Shown here: piece after piece, positions 1 through 23,374 of the stretch | How positions within the stretch are numbered: position 1 is the stretch's first letter | Layout: every line of letters starts with the position of its first letter | NCBI GenBank assembly: GCA_046351535.1 | Contig: JAXLYG010000005.1 | Coordinates: forward strand, 357,334 to 421,333 | Length of the DNA stretch: 64,000 nucleotides | DNA from: Polyangiales bacterium | Lineage (GTDB): Bacteria > Myxococcota_A > Polyangia > Polyangiales > Ga0077539 | Direction: 5' to 3' | Notes under the pieces: generated by a model | What the model was told of the DNA's origin: nothing | What the model saw: only the letters and a program-made list of their open reading frames with translations | Database searches by the model: none | Position numbers and translations under genes: made by a program

Positions 1-1085
<1,085 letters not shown>

Positions 1086-1089
<4 letters not shown>

Positions 1090-1415
1090 AGACGCTCGTG
1101 GGAATGTCGCTGGTGGTCGCGATGGCGCTCGGTCTCGCGGGGTGTGCCTCCACGGGCACCGCGCAGCACGCGACCGTCGCCGTCGGACGCGGTACCAACT
1201 ACGTCGCCTCGGGTCCTGTTCCCCAGGATCCGAATCCGCACGGCGTCGCGGTGGCGTCGTCTGAGAACCTCCGCTCGCTCGGCGACCCCGACCTTCACGG
1301 CGCGGGCGTCCCGACCCCCGAGCCCGCCGCGCCCGAGCACGAGATCCGCCTCGCCGGTCCGACGCCGCAGATCCCGATCCCCCGCAGCGGCGCGATGGCG
1401 ATCCCCGTCGACTGA
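1086..1415 (+). CDS. Small lipoprotein (hypothetical)
   Basis: ATG overlaps the upstream stop (ATGA). Signal peptide with lipobox LGLAGC. Pro/Gly-rich mature part with no recognisable domain. Confidence 0.45.
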
Positions 1416-1447
1416 GCCTCTCTCTTCACAGCCTCGCAGCGATCTAC

Positions 1448-1478
1448 GGCCCGTTGAGAGCGATGACTCCAACGGGCC
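1448..1478 (+). terminator. Hairpin downstream of the lipoprotein gene (9-bp stem ggcccgttg/caacgggcc, 13-nt loop). Possible terminator or regulatory stem-loop.
   Basis: Perfect inverted repeat seen directly in the sequence. No downstream T-tract, as expected at high GC. Confidence 0.25.
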
Positions 1479-1544
1479 GTTCGCATTTCCCAGTCCACGA
1501 TCCGAGGAGGCGCCGCGACGGGTGAACCGCGCGCGCGATGCACG

Positions 1545-2300
1545 ATGAGCGAAGAGACACTCAATCGACGAGCCTTCAGCGCCGGCGTCGCAGCGACCGT
1601 GGCCGCGGCCGCGCTGCTCAAGGACGAGCGCGCCGAGGCGCAGCAGCGCACGGCCGCGCCGGTCCCGATGACGCTCCTCGCGACGCCGGCCGAAAAGGCC
1701 GTGGTGCCGCTCCCCTACGCGCCCGGCGCGCTCACGGGGCTCTCGGAGCGCCTGGTGCGCTCGCACCACGAGAACAACTACGCGGGCGCCGTCCGCAAGC
1801 TCAACGAGATCCGCCGTCAGCTCGCGAGCGCCGACCCCGATCAGTCGGGCGGCTACTGGAGCCTCTACGGCTCGCTTCGCGCCGCGGAGCTCTCCGCGCG
1901 CAACAGCGCGCACCTCCACGAACTGTACTTCTCGAACCTCGCGGCGCCTCCCGCGGGCGACGCGGGCGTGACGCCGTCGGCGGGCGTGGCGGCGGTGCTC
2001 TCGGCGCGCTTCGGCTCCGTCGATCGCTTTCAGGCGCAGCTTCGGGGCGCGGCGAAGGCGTCGAACGGATGGGTGGCGCTCGTCGTCGACCCCGCGTCGC
2101 GCACGCTCGAGCTCGTGCAGACCGAGGGACACGCCTTCGGCGCGTGGGAGGCGTCGCCGCTCGTCGTGCTCGACATGTACGAGCACGCGTACGCGATCGA
2201 TTTCGGCGCCGACAAGGGCGCGTACCTCACGGCCTTCTGGCGCTGCCTCCACTGGGCCGAGGTCGAGCGACGGCTCAACCGCGCGCTCACGAGGGCGTGA
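1545..2300 (+). CDS. Fe/Mn superoxide dismutase-family protein with twin-arginine (Tat) signal peptide; partly degenerate metal site
   Basis: N-terminal RRAFSAGVAATVAAAA Tat motif. SOD signatures LPYAPGAL...HHENNY...KLNEI and C-terminal DMYEHAYAIDF...AFW (Asp/His ligands present). The second HH of HHxKHH and the H81-equivalent are not conserved. Confidence 0.6.
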   Translation: MSEETLNRRAFSAGVAATVAAAALLKDERAEAQQRTAAPVPMTLLATPAEKAVVPLPYAPGALTGLSERLVRSHHENNYAGAVRKLNEIRRQLASADPDQSGGYWSLYGSLRAAELSARNSAHLHELYFSNLAAPPAGDAGVTPSAGVAAVLSARFGSVDRFQAQLRGAAKASNGWVALVVDPASRTLELVQTEGHAFGAWEASPLVVLDMYEHAYAIDFGADKGAYLTAFWRCLHWAEVERRLNRALTRA

Positions 2301-2354
2301 GCGGAACGCGCGTCCCGGTCAGTCGCGGGAAGCGACCGTTGCCACCGCGACGCC

Positions 2355-2500
2355 TCTCGACGCCGCATCGCAGCCCATCGACGCGACGGCGAAGCCCATC
2401 GACGCCGCATCGCAGCCCATCGACGCGACGGCGAAGCCCATCGACGCCGACGCGAAGCCCATCGCCATCACCGCAGAGCCCCTCGACGCGAGCGCGGAGC
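2355..2500. repeat. Tandem array of about seven 21-bp direct repeats (cgacgcSNNNcRNagcccat)
   Basis: Direct inspection: cgacgccgcatcgcagcccat / cgacgcgacggcgaagcccat alternate, then degenerate copies. Intergenic, between the SOD-like gene and a hypothetical gene. Confidence 0.7.
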
Positions 2501-2854
2501 ACGACACCGCGCGTCGATCGCTCTCGCGGCCGCGTCGAGGGCCCTCGTTCGCGCGTCGACGGGCCTTCGTCGCGCCGCCGGTGGCCTGAAATCGCGCGCA
2601 AGTGGGCTCCGCGTCGTCGTCGATGTCCTCCGTGGTGGCGGTCGAAGCCTCCGCGCTGACGACCGAAGCACCCCGACGCGTCGATCGTCCCCGCACCGTC
2701 AAATCTGACGCCCTCGTCCGCAGAAATTGACGCCTCACGCGCGGAGCTTCGACGTTCGTTCGCTTCGCCTCTCGACGCCCGCGGCAAGCCGCAGGGACGG
2801 CGAAATCATCGTCGGCACACGCCGTGGAAAGCGTCCCCGTCCACGAGGTGATGG

Positions 2855-3703
2855 ATGGCGAAGACGAAGACGACCCCGAGGCTGAAGCGCGACACACGGA
2901 CCGTCACGGCGAACGAGCGCGCGAAGGCGACGCCGTCGGTGCTTCCCCCTTCGCCCGCGGAGGACGAGCCCACGGTGACCGTCGGCGCTGAGACGCTCGA
3001 CGCGACGCCCGTGCGGCTGATGCTCCTGCTCCGCGGGATCGGCACGCTGAAGGCGGTACGCGAGACGCTCCGCGGCTGCGGGTACACGGCGAAGGAGCAC
3101 GCCCGCGGGTGGCAGCTCCTCCACGCCTGCTCGGGCTTCGTCGAGGGAACCGAGACCGAAGACACGGCCGTGGCCGAGACCATCGCCGAGATCGACGCGT
3201 GGGACGAGCCCACCTACTCGATCGCCGATGCGTCGCTGAAGCACCGCCACCCGGCGCAGCACGCGTTCGTGTTTCAGGACCTCAAGGCGTCGCGCGGCGT
3301 GGCCGCGGTGGTGGGCGTGCACGCGTTCCTCGCGCGCCTCGACGCGCTCGAAGCGTCACCCGACCGCGCGGCGACGCGGGCCGCCGATCACGCCGCGCTC
3401 GCGACGCTCTCCGAGCGCGGCATCACCGCCGACGAGCGGGCGCGCGTGTGGAAGCTCGTCCGCAAGGCCGAGGCGCTCACCGAAGACGCGAGCTCCGACG
3501 CGAAGCAGCTCAGCGCCGCGGAGCAGACGAGCCGCCTCCGCGAAGCGCGCGCGTTCTTCGAGGAGTGGTCGCAGATCGCGCGCACGCTCATCACGCGTCG
3601 CGACCTGCTGATCCGGCTGGGTCTCGCGCAGCGCAAGGCGCCGGGCGTCAGCGACGACACGCCCGTCACGCCGACGGAGAAGCGCGAGCCGAAGCCCGCG
3701 TGA
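2855..3703 (+). CDS. Hypothetical protein (no recognisable domain), immediately upstream of the ATPase/HNH pair
   Basis: ATG start with balanced amino-acid composition. The antisense ORFs over this region are Arg-rich artefacts. 66 nt upstream of the ATPase gene. Confidence 0.5.
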   Translation: MAKTKTTPRLKRDTRTVTANERAKATPSVLPPSPAEDEPTVTVGAETLDATPVRLMLLLRGIGTLKAVRETLRGCGYTAKEHARGWQLLHACSGFVEGTETEDTAVAETIAEIDAWDEPTYSIADASLKHRHPAQHAFVFQDLKASRGVAAVVGVHAFLARLDALEASPDRAATRAADHAALATLSERGITADERARVWKLVRKAEALTEDASSDAKQLSAAEQTSRLREARAFFEEWSQIARTLITRRDLLIRLGLAQRKAPGVSDDTPVTPTEKREPKPA

Positions 3704-3769
3704 CGCGCTCGGCCCACGAGGCCGCGTTGCTCGCAGCGGAGGCGTGGCGGCTGATATGCTCCGCCCGCA

Positions 3770-5002
3770 ATGCGGCTGCACTCGCTCACACTGACGAACA
3801 TCGGCCCCTTCGACGAAGCGAGCATCGAGTTCCTCGCGGACGGTGACACCTCGGGCAACGTGACGCTGCTCACGGGCGCGAACGGCACCGGCAAGACGAT
3901 CATCCTCGACGCGATTCGAACGCTCTTCGGCTCCGAGTTCGCGACTGTGGAGCGCGACATCTGGCGCAAGGGCGCAGTCGGCGGGATTCGCGGTGACTTC
4001 TCGGAGCCCGTCGAAGGCCGCCAGTCTCGGTTCTCCATCGGCGTCGGGCCCGCCGCGCCTCCGTACTACCCCGTTGGCTTGTCGGTGGAGGTCGCGACCA
4101 ACGTCGGGCGCGGCGCACACCCTCCCCCGTGGGTCGTCGACTTCTGGCGCTCTCAACTGGCGAACGATGCGTACGCCATTACCTCACTCGCAGCGATCAA
4201 TCACCGCGCGCTGTTCAAGGGAGCGCTTCAGGGGGTATCGAGCAACGCGTCGGTGACGCAGCTCCTCTGTCACTTCGACTACCTGCGCGACAGTCGCAAC
4301 GCCCGCGAGCGCGCCACGGGGGAGGCGCTCTACGCGCTCGCGCAGAAGATCGTGCAGATGAGCCTCCTCGACGGCGAGCTCAAGGAGATCGAGCGGCTCA
4401 CCTTCACGCCCATCGTCCGTCAGGGCGGGCACGACGTTCCGCTCGCGAGCATCAGCAGCGGCAACGCCTACCTCGTGCAGCGCATGATCACGCTCCTCGG
4501 GCGCATGTACTCGCTCCACGTGCTGCGTGACGGCGACCCCGCGAAGCTCCACGAGGCTTCTGGACTGCTCCTCATCGACGAGGCCGAGAACCACCTTCAC
4601 CCCTCGTGGCAGAAGAGCCTGCTGCCCAATGTGAGAGAGGTCTTTCCCAACCTCCAGATCATCGCCGCGACGCACTCACCCTTCGTCGTGGCGTCGGTGC
4701 GCGACGCGCGCGTCTACGTCTGCCACTACGACCCGACCACGCGTCGCACGACGGTGCGCGAAGAGACCGCGATCTATCAGAACAAGCCCGTCGACGAGAT
4801 CCTCATGTCGCCCGCGTTCGATCAGACGGCGCCCTTTGGAGAACCCATCAGCACGCTCCTCGCAGATCGCCGCCTCGCGATGGCGAAGGGAGACGTTGCG
4901 ACGCGCGACGAGATCGAACGGCGGCTCGTCGATCTCAACCCCACGTACTTCGGCTACCTCGACCTCGATCGGAAGATCGAGGCGCTGCGCAAGGCGGGCT
5001 GA
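3770..5002 (+). CDS. ABC-type AAA ATPase (AAA_15/AAA_21-like), Septu PtuA-like
   Basis: Walker A GANGTGKT at N-terminus, Walker B LLLIDEAENHLHP, and ATHSP motif near C-terminus. Stop overlaps the start of the HNH gene by 1 nt. Confidence 0.8.
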   Translation: MRLHSLTLTNIGPFDEASIEFLADGDTSGNVTLLTGANGTGKTIILDAIRTLFGSEFATVERDIWRKGAVGGIRGDFSEPVEGRQSRFSIGVGPAAPPYYPVGLSVEVATNVGRGAHPPPWVVDFWRSQLANDAYAITSLAAINHRALFKGALQGVSSNASVTQLLCHFDYLRDSRNARERATGEALYALAQKIVQMSLLDGELKEIERLTFTPIVRQGGHDVPLASISSGNAYLVQRMITLLGRMYSLHVLRDGDPAKLHEASGLLLIDEAENHLHPSWQKSLLPNVREVFPNLQIIAATHSPFVVASVRDARVYVCHYDPTTRRTTVREETAIYQNKPVDEILMSPAFDQTAPFGEPISTLLADRRLAMAKGDVATRDEIERRLVDLNPTYFGYLDLDRKIEALRKAG

Positions 5003-5655
5003 TGGTTCCGCTGGTGCGTGGGCCGACGCCGCGTCCCCTCGCGGAGCACGGGGCTCGTTGGACCTTGGCCTTCGTCGCGGAGCGCGCCGCGAACCCGTCG
5101 AAGCGTCCGCTCCGGGAGCGTTATGGCCACCCCGAGGTGCGCGTCGAGCTTCGTCGCATGAGCCTGGGGAAGTGCTTCTACTGCGAGCGCAAGCACACCG
5201 ACGGCGAGCAGGAGGTCGACCACCACATCGAGGTCGCCGAGCGCCCCGACCTCGCGTTCGCGTGGGAGAATCTCTATCTGTCGTGTAGAGCGTGCAACGG
5301 GAAGGCGCCGAACACGCAGATCCCCGTCGCCTCGTGCGTCGATCCGTGTGCTCCGAGCGCCTCGCCGAACGCGCATCTGACGTTTCACGGCGAGTGCATC
5401 CAACCGCGCGCGAACTCCTCGCACGGGCGCGAGACCATCGAGAAGTACAGGCTCCATCGCGATGAGCTCGACCTCGCGCGCGCTCGCGCGCTCCGCGAGT
5501 TCGATGGGGCGTACATCGCCGTGCTGCGCAGCATGAACGCGTCGGGCCGAAAGGAGCCTTCCGTCGAGGAGCGAGAGTTTCTTCGCGACTTCGCGGACCC
5601 AGCGCGCCCGTTCTCACTGATGATGGCGACGTATCTGAAGCGCCTGGGACTGTGA
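5002..5655 (+). CDS. HNH endonuclease (retron-type/TIGR02646-like), Septu PtuB-like
   Basis: CFYCERKHTDGEQEVDHHIEVAERPDLAFAWENLYLSCRACNGKA is an HNH motif with paired Cys and His/Asn catalytic residues. ATG overlaps the ATPase stop (TGATG). Confidence 0.8.
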   Translation: MVPLVRGPTPRPLAEHGARWTLAFVAERAANPSKRPLRERYGHPEVRVELRRMSLGKCFYCERKHTDGEQEVDHHIEVAERPDLAFAWENLYLSCRACNGKAPNTQIPVASCVDPCAPSASPNAHLTFHGECIQPRANSSHGRETIEKYRLHRDELDLARARALREFDGAYIAVLRSMNASGRKEPSVEEREFLRDFADPARPFSLMMATYLKRLGL

Positions 5656-5688
5656 GCGAACGAAGCCCGCGTGACCCGTCGCCCGCGC

Positions 5689-6606
5689 TCACCCCGCGTC
5701 GGGGTCGTACCGGATGTCTCCGCTGTGTGACGGATCGTAGCCCGGCACGCCCGACAGCATCGCGCGCAGCTCCGCCGACTGCGCCACCTCGCAGAGCCGC
5801 ACCACCGCGGGCGTGCCGAGATCGGCGCTCCGCACGAGCAGCCCGTAGCGCTCGCTGGCGATCAACTGGAACGCGAGCCCGAAGCGCGCCGCCAGCGCGT
5901 GCGTCGTGAGGCCCACCTCGGCCTCCGCGCGCTGCACGGTCTCGCAGACCTCCGCGTGCGACGCGCACACGATCGCGCCCGAGAGCGCCTGCTTGTGATC
6001 GACCTTCGCGGCGCGCAGCGCTTCGATCAGGTGACCGTACACGCCCGCCGTGCTCGGCCTCGACGCGACCTGAACGCGATGCAGCCCCTTGAGCGAGGGA
6101 AAGCGCTCGCCCGGCCGCACCGCGAGACCCACCTCGCGCTCCACGAGGTGAATCCGCGCGAGCCTCGCCTCGCCCGCGCGCGACGGAGGGAGGCCGCCGT
6201 GACTGCCCGCGGCCGTCACCATCCCCTCGGCGAGCCAGCGGAGCGCGAGCGAGCGGTCGGATTGCACGAAGCCCCACAGCGTCTTTGCGCCCGCGTTGAG
6301 GCGCTCCATCAGCATGCGCACCACCACGTCTCCGTTCGCGGCGAGGAGCGGCGGCGGGCGCGCGGAGACCTCGTCTGCGACCGGACGCACGCTCGCAGAG
6401 GGCGCTTCGGGGAGCGCCTCGGCGCCGCGCGACCAGGCCAGCACCTCGTCGCGGCGAAAGCGCCACTCGCCGCCGACGCGACGTCCGGGCAGTCCGCGCT
6501 TGAGCAGGCGGTAGATGTGCTTCGGGTGCACGCGGAGAAGCTCCGCGACGTCGCGACTCGTGAGCAGCGGCGCGTCGTCGGTGTGCGTCGTCATCGCGCG
6601 GAGCAT
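5689..6606 (-). CDS. Transcriptional regulator: excisionase/MerR-type HTH plus PBP-like (molybdate-binding-like) substrate-binding domain
   Basis: LLTSRDVAELLRVHPKHIYRLLKRG HTH at N-terminus. The real start is probably the internal ATG at 6606 (MLRAMTTH); the longer ORF to 6942 is Arg-rich. Divergent from the transporter gene. Confidence 0.6.
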   Translation of the reverse strand: MLRAMTTHTDDAPLLTSRDVAELLRVHPKHIYRLLKRGLPGRRVGGEWRFRRDEVLAWSRGAEALPEAPSASVRPVADEVSARPPPLLAANGDVVVRMLMERLNAGAKTLWGFVQSDRSLALRWLAEGMVTAAGSHGGLPPSRAGEARLARIHLVEREVGLAVRPGERFPSLKGLHRVQVASRPSTAGVYGHLIEALRAAKVDHKQALSGAIVCASHAEVCETVQRAEAEVGLTTHALAARFGLAFQLIASERYGLLVRSADLGTPAVVRLCEVAQSAELRAMLSGVPGYDPSHSGDIRYDPDAG

Positions 6607-6829
6607 CGCCCCAAATCCACCCCGGCAGGAACCTCCGACGTGTGGGCCTCGAAAGGAAACCAGTTGCAACGAGATGGAACCATCGGTAGCAACGCGGGAG
6701 CTCAATGAGACCTTTCGGGCCACCAACGCCTCTCCGCGCGCGTCCGCCCGGCGCCTCGCGTGGGCCGCTGTCACCCGCCCGCGCCGCGCACCCCTCGACG
6801 CGCGTCTGCGACTCGATGCGCGAACCCCG

Positions 6830-8026
6830 GTGGCACCGTTGAACTCGTCGAACCTCTCCTCCAGGCTCCGCTTCGATCGGCACGAGCTCGCGGGCGCCTT
6901 CGGAGACATCGGGACCGACCTCCCGCTGCTCATCGCGCTCATCGCGACGTGCGGACTCGACGCGGCGAGCGTCTGCGTGATGTTCGGGCTGCTCCAGATC
7001 GCGACGGGGATCCTCTACGGGATCCCCATGCCCGTGCAGCCGCTCAAGGCAATGGCCGCGATCATGCTCGCGCAGCGCCTCTCCGCGGGGACCCTCGCGG
7101 GCGGCGGTCTCGTCATCGGCGTGTCGATGTTCCTCCTCGCGGTGACGGGGCTCCTCGACACGCTCGTTCGCGTGGTGCCCAGGGAGGTCGTCCGCGGGAT
7201 CCAGTTCGGCCTCGGCGTGACCCTCGCGACGCTCGCGCTCAAGGAGTACGCGCGCGCCGACGGCCTCCCCGGCTACGCGCTCGCGCTCGTGTCGGTGGTC
7301 GCGCTGCTCGTGTTGCGGAGGCAGCAGCGCGTGCCCGCGCCGCTCGTCGTGATGGCCCTCGGGCTCGCCTACGCCGTCACGGTGAAGCTCGGCGACGGGT
7401 CGTTCCACGGCGCCGTGGGGCTGCGGCTGCCGTCGTTCCACACGCCGACGCGCGCGGAGATCACGCAGGGGGCGCTGCTCCTCGCGCTCCCGCAGATCCC
7501 CTTGTCGCTTGGCAACTCGGTGATCGCCACGAGCCAGACGACGCGAGACCTCTTTCCCCAGCGCGCGGTGTCGGTGCGAAAGATCGGCTTCACCTACGCG
7601 GCGATGAACCTCATCGCGCCGTGGTTCGGTGGGGTTCCCGTCTGTCACGGCTGCGGCGGCCTCGTGGGCTTCTACGGCTTCGGCGCGCGCACGGGGGGAG
7701 CGCCCGTGCTCTACGGCGCGATGTACCTCGTCCTCGGTCTCTTCTTCGCGCCCGGGTTCGCGCGCGTCGTCCACGTCTTTCCGATGCCGCTGCTCGGCGT
7801 GGTGCTGCTCTTCGAAGCCGTCGCGCTCATGACGCTCGTGCGCGACGTGGCGAACGAGTCGAGCTCGCTCTGGGTCGCGCTCGCGGTCGCCGCCGTGGTG
7901 GTGGGGCTCCCCTACGGCTACCTCGTGGGCCTCGTCGCGGGCACGCTCATCGTCTGGGGCGTGCGCCGCGGATGGGTGAAGACCCCCTCGATCGCCGTCT
8001 CCGACACGACGCCGTCGACGGGGTGA
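6830..8026 (+). CDS. MOT1/SulP-like family membrane permease (putative molybdate/sulfate transporter)
   Basis: Hallmark N-terminal motif ELAGAFGDIGTDLPL (MOT1-type GDLGT). About 10 predicted TM helices. Start is uncertain: GTG 6830 or ATG 6671. Confidence 0.55.
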   Translation: MAPLNSSNLSSRLRFDRHELAGAFGDIGTDLPLLIALIATCGLDAASVCVMFGLLQIATGILYGIPMPVQPLKAMAAIMLAQRLSAGTLAGGGLVIGVSMFLLAVTGLLDTLVRVVPREVVRGIQFGLGVTLATLALKEYARADGLPGYALALVSVVALLVLRRQQRVPAPLVVMALGLAYAVTVKLGDGSFHGAVGLRLPSFHTPTRAEITQGALLLALPQIPLSLGNSVIATSQTTRDLFPQRAVSVRKIGFTYAAMNLIAPWFGGVPVCHGCGGLVGFYGFGARTGGAPVLYGAMYLVLGLFFAPGFARVVHVFPMPLLGVVLLFEAVALMTLVRDVANESSSLWVALAVAAVVVGLPYGYLVGLVAGTLIVWGVRRGWVKTPSIAVSDTTPSTG

Positions 8027-8036
8027 GGGGGCGTGC

Positions 8037-8897
8037 TCACCGACCGCTGTTGACGTAGCGCCAGCCGAAGCGCCCCTTGATGCAGAGGTGTCCGTTGGTC
8101 ACCGACGACTCGACGGGCGACGTGACCTTCACCACCTGATCGTCTTGCACGTGCAGCGTCACGGCGCAGCCGACGCCGCAGTACGGGCACACCGTCGTGG
8201 TCGCCGTCTGCCGCTCGGGCGCCCAGGTCCCCTCGGCGCGCATCCGATGCTCGTCGCGGAACATCAGCGCTCCCGTGGGACACACCCCCACGCAGTTGCC
8301 GCAGAACACGCACGCCGACGCGGGGAGGCCCACTTCGAACTCCGTCGCGATGCGCGCTTCGAAGCCGCGTCCCGCGACGGAGATCGCGAAGGTGTTCTGC
8401 GCGTCGTCGCCGCACGCCTCGACGCATTTGTAACAGAGCACGCACTTCGAATAGTCGCGGACGAAGAGGTCGTTGTCGTCCTTCACGGGCTGCGCGACGG
8501 TGGCGCCGTCGAAGCGTTCGGGGGCGGCGCCGTAGCGCGCTCCCCACGTGCGCAGCGTGTCGGAGAGGGCCGTGTCGACGGACGACGCGAGGAGCTCGAT
8601 CACGACCTTGCGCGAGACGCGCACGCGCTCGGAGTCGGTGCGGACGACCATGCCGGGCTCGGCCTTTCGCGAGCACGACGCGACGAGGGTGCGAGCGCCT
8701 TCGAGCTCGACGACGCACACGCGGCACACGTTCACGGGCGTGAGGTTGTCGGCCTGACAGAGCGTCGGCACGTCGATGCCGAGGGCCCTGCACGCGTCGA
8801 GGATGGTCGCCCCTTCGGGGACGCGCGCGACCCTGCCGTCGATGCTGAGCTCGACGACGCGATCGACGGAGTGCGTGACGATGGGGAGATGCTTCAT
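8037..8897 (-). CDS. NuoG-N-terminal/HoxU-like iron-sulfur subunit (2Fe-2S, two 4Fe-4S, MopB-type 4Fe-4S) of NAD-linked formate dehydrogenase
   Basis: 2Fe-2S ferredoxin Cys pattern, CxxCxxCxxxCP motifs, and C-terminal CPYCGVGC...GHLCIKGRFGW (the N-terminal cluster domain normally fused to FdhA). Confidence 0.8.
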   Translation of the reverse strand: MKHLPIVTHSVDRVVELSIDGRVARVPEGATILDACRALGIDVPTLCQADNLTPVNVCRVCVVELEGARTLVASCSRKAEPGMVVRTDSERVRVSRKVVIELLASSVDTALSDTLRTWGARYGAAPERFDGATVAQPVKDDNDLFVRDYSKCVLCYKCVEACGDDAQNTFAISVAGRGFEARIATEFEVGLPASACVFCGNCVGVCPTGALMFRDEHRMRAEGTWAPERQTATTTVCPYCGVGCAVTLHVQDDQVVKVTSPVESSVTNGHLCIKGRFGWRYVNSGR

Positions 8898-9300
8898 GAG
8901 AGGCCCCCTCCCCGTCCCTCCCCCGCGAAGCGGGGAGGGATGCTGAGAGGCCCCCTCCCCGTCCCTCCCCCGCGAAGCGGGAGGTGCCTGTTGGTAGCTG
9001 GCATGCCCTCACCCCGGCCCTCTCCCGCCGAGGCGGGAGAGGGAGGCTCGGCGAGAGGCAGCGGCGCACGGCGCCCAGGCACCTCGTTGCATCGAAATCA
9101 CCTCTCGCCTCAGCCCCTCGCCCGTTCGCACGTCTGCTCGCACGTCTGCCCACTCCTTCGCCCGCTCGCCCGCCCGCACCCCCGCGCCCTCGTGGCACCC
9201 GTGCGCTCCCTCTCCCGCCTCTGGCGGGGAGCAGGGCGGGGCATTCCAGCTACCAACAGGCACCCTCTCCCGCTTCGCGGGGAGGGACGAGAGGGGCTCG
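8898..9300. repeat. Cluster of REP-like palindromic elements forming a large inverted-repeat structure (MITE-like)
   Basis: Two tandem copies of gagaggccccctccccgtccctcccccgcgaagcggggaggg (8899-8984). tgcctgttggtagctggcatgccc (8985-9008) is inverted at 9238-9262. Further palindromes ctctcccgccgaggcgggagaggg and ccctctcccgcttcgcggggaggg lie on the right arm. Confidence 0.65.
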
Positions 9301-21668: not shown

Positions 21669-21742
21669 CGTCGCTCCGTCCACGCTGTTCGATTGCGTGG
21701 TGCTTGCAGAAGCGACACCGAAAGTCGCACAATCGCGACCCT

Positions 21743-23374
21743 ATGATGAAAGGGGACGGTACCCCCCTCCAGGAGAGCCCGCCGTCGCTCGGTGGCGTGC
21801 GGGTCGGGCTACAGCTCGGGCGCTATGAGCTGCTCCATGAGATCGCCACGGGCGGCATGGCCACGGTGTATCTCGCGAGGGCGCGCAGCGTCGCGGGCTT
21901 CGAGCGCGTCGTCGCGATCAAGGTGTGCCACCCCCACCTGCGCCACGAGGAGGAGTTCTCGTCGATGTTCCTCGACGAGGCCCGGCTGGCGGCGAGGATC
22001 CACCACCCCAACGTGGTGAGCACCCTCGACGTCGGCGAGGCCGAGCAGCTCTACCTCGTGATGGAGTACATCGAGGGAGACCGCATCTCGGGGCTCATCA
22101 AGGCCGCGGCGCGTCGGGGCGAGCGCGTGCCCGTGCCCATCACCCTGCGCATCATGATCGACGTGCTCTCGGGCCTCCACGCGGCCCACGAGCTGAAAGA
22201 TCACCAGGGCCATCCGCTCAACATCGTCCACCGCGACGTGTCTCCGCAGAACATCCTCGTCGGCGTCGACGGGGTGACGCGCATCACCGACTTCGGCATC
22301 GCGAAGGCCGAGGCCCGCCTCACCGTCACCCGCGAGGGACAGGTGAAGGGCAAGATGTCGTACATGGCGCCCGAGCAGCTCTCGTCGACGAACGTCAACC
22401 GACGCGCCGACGTGTACGCCGCGGGCGTCGTGCTCTGGGAGGCCCTCACGGGCCGTCGCCTCTTTCGCGCCGACACCGAGGCCGAGACGCTCAACCTCGT
22501 GCTCCACGGCGTCGTGCTCGCGCCCTCGACGGTGGCCCCCGAGATCGTGCCCGAGGTCGACGCGGTGCTTCGCAAGGCCCTCGAGCGCGACCCCGACAAG
22601 CGCTTTCAGTCTGCGGCGGAGTTCGCCGACGCGCTCGAGAACCTCGACGTGCTCAAGGTCGCCACGACGCGCGCCGTGGCCGCGTACATCTGCGAGCTCC
22701 TCGCCGAGCCCATCCAGAAGCGCCGCGAGCTCGTCCGCAAGTTCAGCGAGGGCGCGCCGTTGCCCCTGCCCGTCGAGCACTCCGGCGTGCGCGCGACCTC
22801 GGACATCCAGAACCCCTTCGCCCACGGCGGATCGACGCGGACCAACGTCCCGCCGCTCCCCGGCGCGCTCTCGGCGCCGATGCTCCCGACGCCCGTCGCG
22901 GGCGACGCCTCGGTGCTCGAGATCGAGCCCGAAGACCCCACGTCGTCAAGGGCCCTACGCCGCCGCGGCCGCCGTGCTCCTGCTCCTCGTCGTCGACGCC
23001 CGGGAGCGCGACGCGATGCGCAACGGCCGCGCACCTCGGTGAACGCGCCGCCGCCGGGCACCAACGCGGTGCTTCGCGCGGCCCCGCCGACGCCTGCGCC
23101 GCCGACACCCGCGCCGCCCGTGGCGCAGCCCGCGCCAGAGACGCAGCCCGCGGTCGTGGCGCAGCCCGCGCCCGAGACGCAGCCCGCGGTCGTCGCCGAG
23201 ACGCAGCCCGCGCAGACCGACGACCAGGCGCAGCCGCGCGGACATCACCCGCCGCGCGCCCCGCGCGCCCCGCGGGCCCCGCGCGTCGGCGCCGGTCACG
23301 CAGAGACGACCCCCGCGCTCCCGCCCGCGCAGCCCCAGCAGGGCGGCGGAGAGTTTCGCCCGAGCGGGATCTGA
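21743..23374 (+). CDS. Ser/Thr protein kinase with Pro/Ala-rich repetitive C-terminal tail
   Basis: Hanks kinase motifs: GGMATVY, VAIK, HRDVSPQNILVG, DFGIAK, SYMAPE. C-terminal PAPPTPAPPVAQPAPETQPAVVAQPAPETQPAVV repeats. Confidence 0.85.
   Translation: MMKGDGTPLQESPPSLGGVRVGLQLGRYELLHEIATGGMATVYLARARSVAGFERVVAIKVCHPHLRHEEEFSSMFLDEARLAARIHHPNVVSTLDVGEAEQLYLVMEYIEGDRISGLIKAAARRGERVPVPITLRIMIDVLSGLHAAHELKDHQGHPLNIVHRDVSPQNILVGVDGVTRITDFGIAKAEARLTVTREGQVKGKMSYMAPEQLSSTNVNRRADVYAAGVVLWEALTGRRLFRADTEAETLNLVLHGVVLAPSTVAPEIVPEVDAVLRKALERDPDKRFQSAAEFADALENLDVLKVATTRAVAAYICELLAEPIQKRRELVRKFSEGAPLPLPVEHSGVRATSDIQNPFAHGGSTRTNVPPLPGALSAPMLPTPVAGDASVLEIEPEDPTSSRALRRRGRRAPAPRRRRPGARRDAQRPRTSVNAPPPGTNAVLRAAPPTPAPPTPAPPVAQPAPETQPAVVAQPAPETQPAVVAETQPAQTDDQAQPRGHHPPRAPRAPRAPRVGAGHAETTPALPPAQPQQGGGEFRPSGI

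What the first reader, a model, noticed from the sequence alone, without database searches (positions are those of the whole stretch)
3770..5655. Septu-like two-gene anti-phage module (ABC-ATPase plus HNH nuclease) with 1-nt translational coupling
A 410-aa ABC/AAA_15-type ATPase (Walker A GANGTGKT, Walker B LLLIDEAENHLHP, ATHSP) is immediately followed by a retron-type HNH endonuclease (CFYCE...DHHIE...NLYLSCRACNGK). The nuclease ATG overlaps the ATPase stop.

This pairing and domain order matches the Septu (PtuA/PtuB) defence system. It sits in an otherwise metabolic region, preceded by an uncharacterised 282-aa gene and a 21-bp tandem repeat array.
Basis: partly seen in the sequence, partly recalled or inferred. 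Interest (0 to 1): 0.55.

Follow-up and report, generated by a model that had tools for sequence, protein, structure and literature searches.

The report
Stand-alone Septu (PtuA/PtuB) defence cassette
This is an ordinary two-gene Septu anti-phage system (ATPase PtuA plus HNH nuclease PtuB) in a myxobacterial genome, sitting as a 2-kb insertion bracketed by a 15-base repeat and cleanly missing from a near-identical strain.

Summary
ORF 3770-5002 (410 aa) and ORF 5002-5655 (217 aa) overlap by one base (TGATG). They match PADLOC PtuA and PtuB profiles end to end (E 3e-136 and 2e-33). Their AlphaFold models hit only solved PtuA/PtuB chains at the top of the PDB list, and all catalytic residues are conserved. 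No reverse transcriptase or retron RNA is present, so this is stand-alone (type I) Septu.

What I add:
- The pair is a 1,971-bp insertion (3705-5675) flanked by a perfect 15-nt direct repeat, CGAAGCCCGCGTGAC.
- A strain about 99% identical in the flanking genes (L008) lacks the pair and has one repeat copy. A more distant outgroup (L034) is also empty.
- Relatives at 89-95% identity carry the pair at the same site.
- GC is 0.66-0.67, against 0.72 for the window.
- dN/dS is 0.15-0.32, so the genes are maintained.
- The upstream 282-aa gene and the 21-bp repeat array are also present in L008, which lacks PtuAB, so they are not part of the system.

The mechanism is inferred by homology. A PtuA oligomer holds PtuB in check, and infection releases nuclease activity (DNA nicking or tRNA-Tyr cleavage). 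This is a new member of a known kind and of low interest. How the cassette inserted without a recombinase gene is unresolved.

The parts
3690..3704 (.). Left copy of the 15-nt direct repeat CGAAGCCCGCGTGAC. It is the native 3' end (last codons plus TGA stop plus 1 nt) of the 282-aa gene.
   Evidence: Exact repeat found, with only two copies in 64 kb at <=1 mismatch and 0.11 expected. The same gene end is present in the empty sites L008 and L034.
3705..3769 (+). 65-nt leader carried inside the insertion. It is conserved in L002/L032 and partly in L001. No Shine-Dalgarno sequence or consensus sigma-70 promoter was recognised.
   Evidence: Absent from L008. Leaders compared. The promoter scan was empty.
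3770..5002 (+). ptuA: 410-aa ABC-type ATPase (Walker A G36-K42, signature S229-S230-G231-N232, Walker B D270-E271, H-loop H302, three C-terminal helices).
   Evidence: PADLOC PtuA E 3e-136, full length. Pfam AAA_21/AAA_15/AAA_23. Invariant motifs in 50 homologues. Model pLDDT 89.6, with the top 50 PDB hits all PtuA. dN/dS 0.15-0.28.
5002..5655 (+). ptuB: 217-aa HNH (beta-beta-alpha-metal) nuclease (C58/C61, D73-H74, N90, C95/C98-N99) plus a helical C-terminal domain. Its start overlaps the ptuA stop by 1 nt.
   Evidence: PADLOC PtuB E 2e-33, full length. Pfam HNH. Invariant residues. Profile hits to solved PtuB chains. Model pLDDT 96.2, with the top 11 PDB hits all PtuB. dN/dS 0.24-0.32.
5661..5675 (.). 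Right copy of the 15-nt direct repeat, 5 nt after the ptuB stop. It marks the right end of the 1,971-bp insertion (3705-5675).
   Evidence: The copy is degenerate in L007/L032, and in L001-L003 it is separated from ptuB by an extra gene.

Best explanation
The locus is a stand-alone (type I) Septu anti-phage system. PtuA is an ABC-type ATPase and PtuB an HNH nuclease. They are translated from one transcript with coupled stop and start codons. By homology with the characterised E. coli systems, PtuA oligomerises and holds PtuB through its C-terminal helices. ATP-bound PtuA keeps the nuclease quiet. Phage infection (a phage protein trigger and/or a drop in ATP) releases nuclease activity, and PtuB then nicks DNA and/or cleaves host tRNA-Tyr, stopping phage production at a cost to the infected cell. 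What is shown here: family membership, intact catalytic motifs, purifying selection, the absence of a retron partner, and the pair's status as a discrete 1,971-bp insertion with 15-nt direct repeats that is absent from a near-identical strain. What is inferred: stoichiometry, trigger, substrate and the abortive-infection outcome. The insertion most likely arose in the ancestor of a small Polyangiales clade, right after the stop codon of a conserved 282-aa gene. It was later lost precisely, probably by recombination between the repeats, in the L008 lineage.
For: Sequence and fold:
- PADLOC gives full-length PtuA and PtuB matches. Pfam finds AAA_21/AAA_15/AAA_23 and HNH, with no extra domains.
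- PDB sequence and profile hits go to PtuA (8ee4, 9vkz) and PtuB (22bv, 9vh1).
- Among structure hits, the top 11 for PtuB and the top 50 for PtuA are PtuB/PtuA chains, including E. coli Septu 8eea.
- Invariant K42, D270/E271 and H302 in PtuA, and H74 and N90 in PtuB, correspond to the residues K43, D316, H75 and N91 whose mutation abolishes Septu EcB88 defence (PMC13096335).

Gene order and partners:
- The PtuA-then-PtuB order is conserved down to 34% identity (L012-L014).
- No Rfam hit was found in the window, or at E<=1 in 2200-7000. The upstream gene is not a reverse transcriptase.

Insertion:
- L008 is an empty site with one repeat copy, and its flanks are 98.9-99.3% identical to the window.
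- The outgroup L034 is also empty.
- GC is 0.659 for ptuA and 0.673 for ptuB against 0.723 for the window.
- dN/dS is 0.15-0.32.

Mechanistic frame: PMC12640716 and PMC12819146.
Against: There is no functional data for this clade. The protein is only about 18-22% identical to the solved PtuA chains in the structural alignments, and PtuB 12-20%. PtuA is shorter than E. coli PtuA (410 against 465 aa), and its signature motif is SSGN rather than the LSDGQR of retron Ec78 PtuA, so oligomeric state, ATP regulation and substrate could all differ. The NCBIfam PtuA/PtuB equivalogs (retron Ec78 type) are matched far below cut-off. No promoter or ribosome-binding site was recognised. The insertion has no recombinase, no terminal inverted repeats and no tRNA target, so how it arrived is unexplained.
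Confidence: 0.88

Rival explanations
1. The pair is the effector module of a retron (type I-A retron / type II Septu), and its reverse transcriptase and msr-msd RNA lie elsewhere or were missed.
For: The best sequence hits in the PDB are retron Ec78 PtuA chains. NCBIfam's only PtuA/PtuB models are retron Ec78 equivalogs, and both give weak hits.
Against: Scores are far below the equivalog cut-offs (94.5 against 500 bits; 32.5 against 150 bits). PtuA is 410 aa and lacks the N-terminal extension of the 550-aa retron PtuA that contacts the RT and ncRNA (PMC12819146). No Rfam retron RNA was found, even at E<=1. The insertion contains only the two genes. The upstream gene belongs to an unrelated family that also occurs without PtuAB.
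Confidence: 0.03
2. The ATPase-nuclease pair is a selfish addiction or homing-like cassette, or serves in DNA repair or other housekeeping, rather than in phage defence.
For: It is a compact two-gene insertion with flanking direct repeats and no mobility gene. It includes an HNH nuclease, a domain also used by homing endonucleases. PtuAB from retron Eco7 is toxic when expressed alone (PMC12640716).
Against: Both proteins match the defence-family profiles full length, not homing-endonuclease or repair families. RecF, RecN and SbcC hits cover only the P-loop region, with E 1e-5 to 4e-4. Independent PtuAB loci show no flanking repeats above the null. No copy of the cassette above 70% identity was found at any other genomic site.
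Confidence: 0.05
3. The module belongs to a different ABC-ATPase defence family (Gabija/OLD, PARIS AriA-AriB, or an AbiEii-like AAA_21 toxin system) and has been mislabelled as Septu.
For: Pfam's best hit is AAA_21, described as 'putative AbiEii toxin'. AriA is hit in PADLOC (5.5e-21, partial) and in the PDB (profile E 8e-11). An OLD-family chain is hit weakly (3e-6).
Against: Those matches cover only the shared ATPase core, whereas the PtuA profile covers 1-408 at E 3e-136. No TOPRIM or DUF4435 domain is present, and the partner is an HNH protein with the PtuB fold.
Confidence: 0.02

Closest known systems
Stand-alone Septu of E. coli (EcSeptu, PDB 8EE4/8EE7/8EEA/8SUX; Septu EcB88)
   Same: Both have the two-gene architecture with PtuA ahead of PtuB and no RT or RNA partner. 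PtuA has the ABC ATPase fold (TM 0.59-0.67 to 8ee4/8eea) and PtuB the HNH fold (TM 0.60 to 8eea_G). The catalytic residues K42/D270 and H74/N90 are equivalent to K43/D316 and H75/N91 of EcB88.
   Different: Identity in the structural alignments is only about 12-20%. PtuA is 410 aa here, against 465 aa in E. coli. The host is a high-GC myxobacterium. Oligomer (6:2), ATP inhibition, trigger (tail fibre) and substrate (plasmid nicking, tRNA-Tyr variable loop) are known only for the E. coli systems.
Retron type I-A effectors (Retron-Eco7/Ec78 and Eco4/Ec83 PtuAB; 'type II Septu')
   Same: The PtuA and PtuB are homologous. These are the best sequence hits in the PDB (E 1e-18 for PtuA; 2e-6 for PtuB by profile) and the best PtuB fold matches (TM up to 0.72).
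   Different: The locus has no reverse transcriptase and no msr-msd RNA. PtuA lacks the N-terminal extension, helical flap and m-loop that bind the RT and msDNA (410 against about 550 aa). PtuB here keeps the second CxxC (C95/C98), which aligns to 'SCGD' in the retron PtuBs.
PADLOC PtuA model PDLC00309 / PtuB model PDLC00337 subfamily
   Same: The match is end to end at very high score, and the profile lengths (413 and 216) equal the protein lengths. This compact PtuA/PtuB subtype is therefore already catalogued as Septu.
   Different: No difference was detected at sequence level. No member of this subtype has been studied experimentally, as far as the papers searched show.

Membership tests
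Septu type I (stand-alone PtuA/PtuB) | PtuA: ABC-type ATPase recognised full length by a PtuA profile | tested here: met
   PADLOC PDLC00309: E 3e-136, residues 1-408 on profile positions 1-412 of 413. Top 50 Foldseek PDB hits are all PtuA.
Septu type I (stand-alone PtuA/PtuB) | PtuA ATPase motifs intact (Walker A Lys, Walker B Asp/Glu, signature, H-loop) | tested here: met
   G36-x-N38-G39-x-G41-K42, S229-S230-G231-N232, D270-E271 and H302 are invariant or nearly so in 50 homologues. K43 and D316 are essential in Septu EcB88 (PMC13096335).
Septu type I (stand-alone PtuA/PtuB) | PtuB: HNH nuclease recognised by a PtuB profile, with catalytic His and Asn | tested here: met
   PADLOC PDLC00337: E 2e-33, full length. 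Pfam HNH at 28.2 bits, above the 21.4 cut-off. H74 and N90 are invariant. Top 11 PDB fold hits are all PtuB.
Septu type I (stand-alone PtuA/PtuB) | Adjacent, co-oriented genes in the order ptuA then ptuB | tested here: met
   1-nt overlap at 5002. The same order is seen in L001-L006, L012-L014 and L032.
Septu type I (stand-alone PtuA/PtuB) | No retron RT/ncRNA partner (separates type I from type II) | tested here: met
   No Rfam hit. The insertion holds only two genes. The neighbouring gene has no RT domain.
Septu type I (stand-alone PtuA/PtuB) | PtuA-PtuB complex (6:2 in E. coli) with ATP-inhibited nuclease activity | not testable with these tools
   Known for EcSeptu only (cited in PMC12640716 and PMC12819146). 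The predicted C-terminal helices of PtuA (358-409) are compatible with it, but no complex was modelled.
Septu type I (stand-alone PtuA/PtuB) | Protects against phage infection | not testable with these tools
   This needs plaque assays. Indirect support comes from variable presence between near-identical strains and purifying selection.
Retron type I-A (Ec78/Eco7, Ec83/Eco4; type II Septu) | Reverse transcriptase and msr-msd ncRNA adjacent to ptuAB | tested here: not met
   No Rfam family was matched. The upstream ORF has no RT domain. The NCBIfam equivalogs NF041760 and NF041761 score 94.5 against a 500-bit cut-off and 32.5 against 150.
Gabija / OLD-family nucleases | ATPase fused to, or paired with, a TOPRIM nuclease domain | tested here: not met
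   Pfam shows only AAA-type domains in the 410-aa protein, and the partner is an HNH protein. The OLD chain 6p74 is hit only at 3e-6, over the Walker B region.
PARIS (AriA/AriB) | AriA ATPase paired with an AriB TOPRIM/DUF4435 effector | tested here: not met
   The AriA match is partial (PADLOC 5.5e-21 on residues 211-308). No AriB-like gene is present; the partner has the PtuB fold.
Site-specific integrative element (genomic island with att repeats) | Flanking direct repeats, with a single copy in the empty site | tested here: met
   The 15-nt perfect repeat lies at 3690-3704 and 5661-5675. L008 holds one copy and L034 the gene-end copy only.
Site-specific integrative element (genomic island with att repeats) | Element-encoded integrase/recombinase or transposase | tested here: not met
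   The 1,971-bp insertion encodes only PtuA and PtuB. No terminal inverted repeats were evident by eye in the junction sequences printed; the repeat-finding tool was not run on the cassette ends.

The most novel reading that the evidence does not exclude
The two-gene Septu cassette might be a minimal mobile unit in its own right. It sits exactly behind the stop codon of a conserved gene, it duplicated 15 nt there, it can be lost precisely, and it carries no recombinase. This could reflect a cassette-type insertion mechanism acting in trans (an unlinked recombinase recognising the 15-nt core, or staggered-cut repair) that shuttles small defence modules into a myxobacterial variable locus. The same locus holds a D12 methyltransferase, NACHT/AAA_16 NTPases or other cargo in relatives.
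Probability: 0.08. Interest if true: 0.6.

Novelty: new member of a known kind. Interest (0 to 1): 0.2.

Why it matters
As a Septu system the locus is routine: the subtype is already covered by PADLOC profiles, and it adds a myxobacterial (Polyangiales) example. It has modest extra value as a natural presence/absence pair. Two strains about 99% identical in the flanks differ by exactly this 2-kb cassette, with base-pair-resolved junctions. That documents gain, and precise loss, of a defence system without any linked mobility gene. It also marks the region around the conserved 282-aa gene as a variable locus in this clade. Experimentally, the compact 410-aa PtuA could serve as a minimal comparison for the E. 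coli structures.

Tried and rejected
- Retron association: the Rfam scan at gathering threshold on the whole window, and at E<=1 on 2200-7000, found nothing. Rejected.
- tRNA-linked island: no tRNA or tmRNA in the 64 kb.
- The 282-aa upstream gene as a third component: rejected. It occurs without PtuAB in L008, L009, L010, L011, L033 and L034, and PtuAB occurs without it in L004-L006 and in the P0005 contig. It has no Pfam, PADLOC or PDB match; the only signal is a recurrent sub-threshold NCBIfam 'PQLLE' hit.
- The 21-bp array as part of the system: rejected. It is also present in L008, which lacks PtuAB, with one 42-bp unit fewer.
- Multi-system defence island in this genome: PADLOC on ten flanking proteins gave only generic domain hits, to a bEBP AAA+ domain, an HTH and a Ser/Thr kinase.
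- Direct repeats as a general property of PtuAB cassettes: independent loci (L004, L012, L014) show nothing above the null.
- Promoter/terminator consensus scan: empty, and uninformative in a 72% GC genome.
- Close relatives on plasmids or phages: none above 27% identity.
- The genome-contig scan with the flanking regulator gave one locus (L007). It ends 292 nt past the regulator but still shows the ptuB 3' end.
- The metagenome scan gave only three full-length, distant PtuA relatives.
- The paper by Li et al. 2024 on the EcSeptu structure is not held. Its findings are cited second-hand through PMC12640716 and PMC12819146.
Full report
**1. Observation**

The ORF table and the raw sequence confirm a 410-aa ORF at 3770..5002 (+) and a 217-aa ORF at 5002..5655 (+). 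The junction reads GGC-TGA-TGG, so the TGA stop (5000-5002) and the ATG (5002-5004) share one base.

The ORF tool lists a longer GTG-initiated reading frame (4606..5655). The ATG at 5002 is nevertheless the real start. M1, R6 and P10 are invariant or nearly invariant among 47 homologues. The identical stop/start overlap is also seen in the gene calls of L001, L002, L003, L005 and L032.

**2. Family assignment**

Profile searches:
- PADLOC gives end-to-end matches. PtuA model PDLC00309 scores E 3e-136 (residues 1-408 on profile positions 1-412 of 413). PtuB model PDLC00337 scores E 2e-33 (1-214 on 1-210 of 216).
- Pfam sees only AAA_21/AAA_15/AAA_23-type ATPase domains and an HNH domain. It finds no TOPRIM or other extra domain.
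- The NCBIfam models for PtuA and PtuB are equivalogs of the retron Ec78 proteins, and they are matched far below cut-off.

Comparison with solved structures:
- Sequence searches of the PDB hit retron Ec78/Ec83 PtuA, E. coli Septu PtuA (8ee4) and, more weakly, AriA.
- A profile of 47 PtuB homologues hits solved PtuB chains (22bv_F at 9e-7, 9vh1_F at 2e-6).
- The AlphaFold2 models are confident: PtuB pLDDT 96.2 and PtuA 89.6.
- In Foldseek searches of the PDB, the first 11 hits for PtuB and the first 50 for PtuA are all PtuB or PtuA chains. These include the E. coli Septu complex 8eea.

Catalytic residues:
- The family alignments show invariant catalytic positions. PtuA has the Walker A (G36...K42), the signature S229-S230-G231-N232, Walker B D270-E271 and H-loop H302.
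- PtuB has C58/C61, D73-H74, N90 and C95/C98-N99.
- These correspond to the residues whose mutation abolishes defence by Septu EcB88: PtuA K43 and D316, PtuB H75 and N91 (PMC13096335).

**3. Stand-alone, not retron-linked**

- No Rfam family is matched anywhere in the window at gathering threshold, nor at E<=1 in 2200-7000.
- There is no tRNA in the window.
- The upstream ORF has no reverse-transcriptase domain.
- PtuA is 410 aa, whereas retron PtuA is about 550 aa. The extra N-terminal extension, flap and loops of retron PtuA bind the RT and msDNA (PMC12819146).
- The locus is therefore type I Septu in the nomenclature used by PMC12640716.

**4. Extent and history of the insertion**

The source is a Polyangiales MAG (P0001 and P0241 are 100% identical).

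The empty site:
- Searching with the upstream 282-aa protein, which is unbiased with respect to PtuAB, recovered L008, an activated-sludge contig.
- In L008 the 282-aa gene abuts the HTH_17/PBP_like regulator directly.
- At DNA level, window 1-3707 and 5661-9241 align to L008 at 97.9% and 96.9%.
- The three flanking genes are 98.9-99.3% identical.
- Window 3708-5660 is absent from L008.

The repeat:
- The junctions carry a perfect 15-nt direct repeat, CGAAGCCCGCGTGAC, at 3690-3704 and 5661-5675. L008 has a single copy.
- The 15-mer occurs only at those two places in the 64 kb even with one mismatch allowed, against 0.11 expected.
- It exceeds the 95th percentile (11 nt) of the longest repeat between random zone pairs with the same spacing.
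- The left copy is the native end of the 282-aa gene (...P-K-P-A-stop). The same end is present in L034, an outgroup whose 282-aa protein is 70% identical. In L034 the gene is again followed directly by the regulator.

Polarity of the change:
- The empty state is therefore ancestral.
- Relatives with 89-95% identical flanks (L001, L002/L003, L007, L032) all carry ptuAB at this site. L007 was found through the regulator, not through PtuA.
- The most parsimonious history is one insertion in the ancestor of this small clade, followed by a recent precise loss in the L008 lineage, probably through the repeats.
- Re-gain in the window lineage cannot be excluded.

Supporting measures:
- Composition agrees with foreign origin. 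GC is 0.659 for ptuA and 0.673 for ptuB, against 0.723 for the window, and GC3 is 0.87 and 0.84 against 0.89-0.95 for neighbours.
- dN/dS is 0.15-0.28 for ptuA and 0.24-0.32 for ptuB, similar to the neighbouring regulator (0.16-0.24). The genes are under purifying selection.
- No close relative of PtuA is found on catalogued plasmids or phages; the best is 27% identity.

**5. What is not part of the system**

- The 282-aa gene belongs to a family of about 180 myxobacterial hypothetical proteins. The family occurs without PtuAB in six loci.
- PtuAB homologues at 64-70% identity lack it.
- The 21-bp (really 42-bp) array at 2344-2575 lies in the intergenic region upstream of the 282-aa gene. It is also present in L008, which lacks PtuAB, one 42-bp unit shorter.
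- PADLOC on ten flanking proteins finds only generic domain similarity. In this genome the pair is a lone cassette between a SOD-like gene plus the 282-aa gene on one side and a molybdate-transport/formate-dehydrogenase-like cluster on the other.
- The neighbourhood is variable among relatives. L001 has a D12 methyltransferase in place of the SOD-like gene. L033 has NACHT-pentapeptide and AAA_16 NTPases there. L001-L003 have a 1,069-1,111-aa gene between ptuB and the regulator. L001, L007 and L034 have three extra genes between the regulator and the transporter.

**6. Mechanism (inferred by homology)**

- In E. coli, PtuA and PtuB form a 6:2 complex.
- ATP binding inhibits the nuclease.
- The stand-alone system is reported to sense a phage tail-fibre protein and to nick plasmid DNA (PMC12640716 and PMC12819146, citing Li et al. 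2024).
- I expect the same logic here: the ATPase oligomer restrains the HNH nuclease until infection.
- The low identity (12-22% in structural alignments), the shorter PtuA and the SSGN signature motif leave oligomer state, trigger and substrate open.

**7. How the cassette inserted**

This is unresolved. A 15-nt duplication at the exact 3' end of a gene, with one copy in the empty site, looks like the core of a site-specific recombination site or an unusually long target-site duplication. However, the insert encodes no recombinase. No terminal inverted repeats were evident by eye in the junction sequences; the repeat-finding tool was not run on the cassette ends. Independent PtuAB loci show no comparable repeats. 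I rate a genuinely new cassette-mobility mechanism as unlikely (about 0.08) but not excluded.

**8. Verdict**

This is a new member of a known kind, of a subtype already represented in PADLOC. The presence/absence polymorphism is well documented but not surprising. Interest 0.2.

Noticed in passing
window 2344-2575: A minisatellite with a 21-nt period (better described as 42-nt units, 93% matches) lies in the intergenic region between the SOD-like gene and the 282-aa gene. The window has one 42-bp unit more than the ~99%-identical strain L008, and the array is diverged but recognisable in L001/L002. No ORF across it passes a GC3 coding test.
   Followed up: partly
window 2855-3703; L008-L011, L033, L034: The 282-aa gene belongs to a family of uncharacterised myxobacterial proteins: about 180 homologues, no Pfam or PDB match, and 33 of 48 members weakly hit NCBIfam 'PQLLE family' below cut-off. 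It sits in the middle of a variable region. Depending on the genome, its neighbours are PtuAB, a D12 methyltransferase, NACHT/AAA_16 NTPases, a type IIG restriction-modification enzyme (L010), or a WYL regulator plus a small HNH protein (L011). It may mark a hotspot for defence-type cargo.
   Followed up: partly
L004 11248-11904; L005 and L006 3635-4291: In a related Myxococcales lineage (PtuA 69% identical), ptuB is full length but carries a single in-frame stop at codon 69, just before the catalytic Asp-His. The stop appears in three separate assemblies, so it is an apparently inactivated nuclease next to an intact ptuA.
   Followed up: partly
L001 5239-8574; L002 3363-6572; L003 3271-6480 (minus strand): A gene of 1,069-1,111 aa (weak Pfam Stig1 hit, no PADLOC hit) lies between ptuB and the regulator in three relatives. 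It is absent from the window, L007, L032 and L008. A remnant of the 15-nt repeat (..CGCGTGAC|CCG..) lies on its far side.
   Followed up: partly
window 6693-6785 versus L001 9751-13127, L007, L034 2261-5591: Three co-oriented genes (about 331, 395-404 and 372-375 aa; no Pfam or PADLOC hits) are present between the HTH_17/PBP_like regulator and the MFS_MOT1 transporter in some relatives. They are absent in the window, L002, L008 and L032.
   Followed up: no
window ~6650-6720: A conserved intergenic element (GAAAGGAAACCAGTTGCAACGAGATGGAACCATCGGTAGCAAC...) lies between the divergent regulator and molybdate-transporter genes and is shared with L008, L002 and partly L001. There is no Rfam match at E<=1. 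It could be an operator or an unmodelled leader RNA.
   Followed up: no
window 8898-9297: A cluster of GC-rich palindromic units (CCCTCTCCCGC...GCGGGAGAGGG), together with a 26-nt inverted-repeat pair (8983-9008 / 9239-9264, 96% complementary, 230 nt apart), lies between two formate-dehydrogenase-like genes. The ~400-bp segment is missing from L007 and L032 and only partly present in L008. It looks like a REP/MITE-type insertion.
   Followed up: partly
window 43-1089 and 21704-23374: Two ORFs give strong PADLOC hits that are probably generic. A sigma-54 activator, C-terminal part of an >=813-aa protein, matches RtcR_PspF2 (E 2e-108, but only over the AAA+/HTH part). A Ser/Thr kinase matches PD-T4-6 over the kinase domain (E 2e-74). 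Neither has the partner genes of a defence system nearby.
   Followed up: partly
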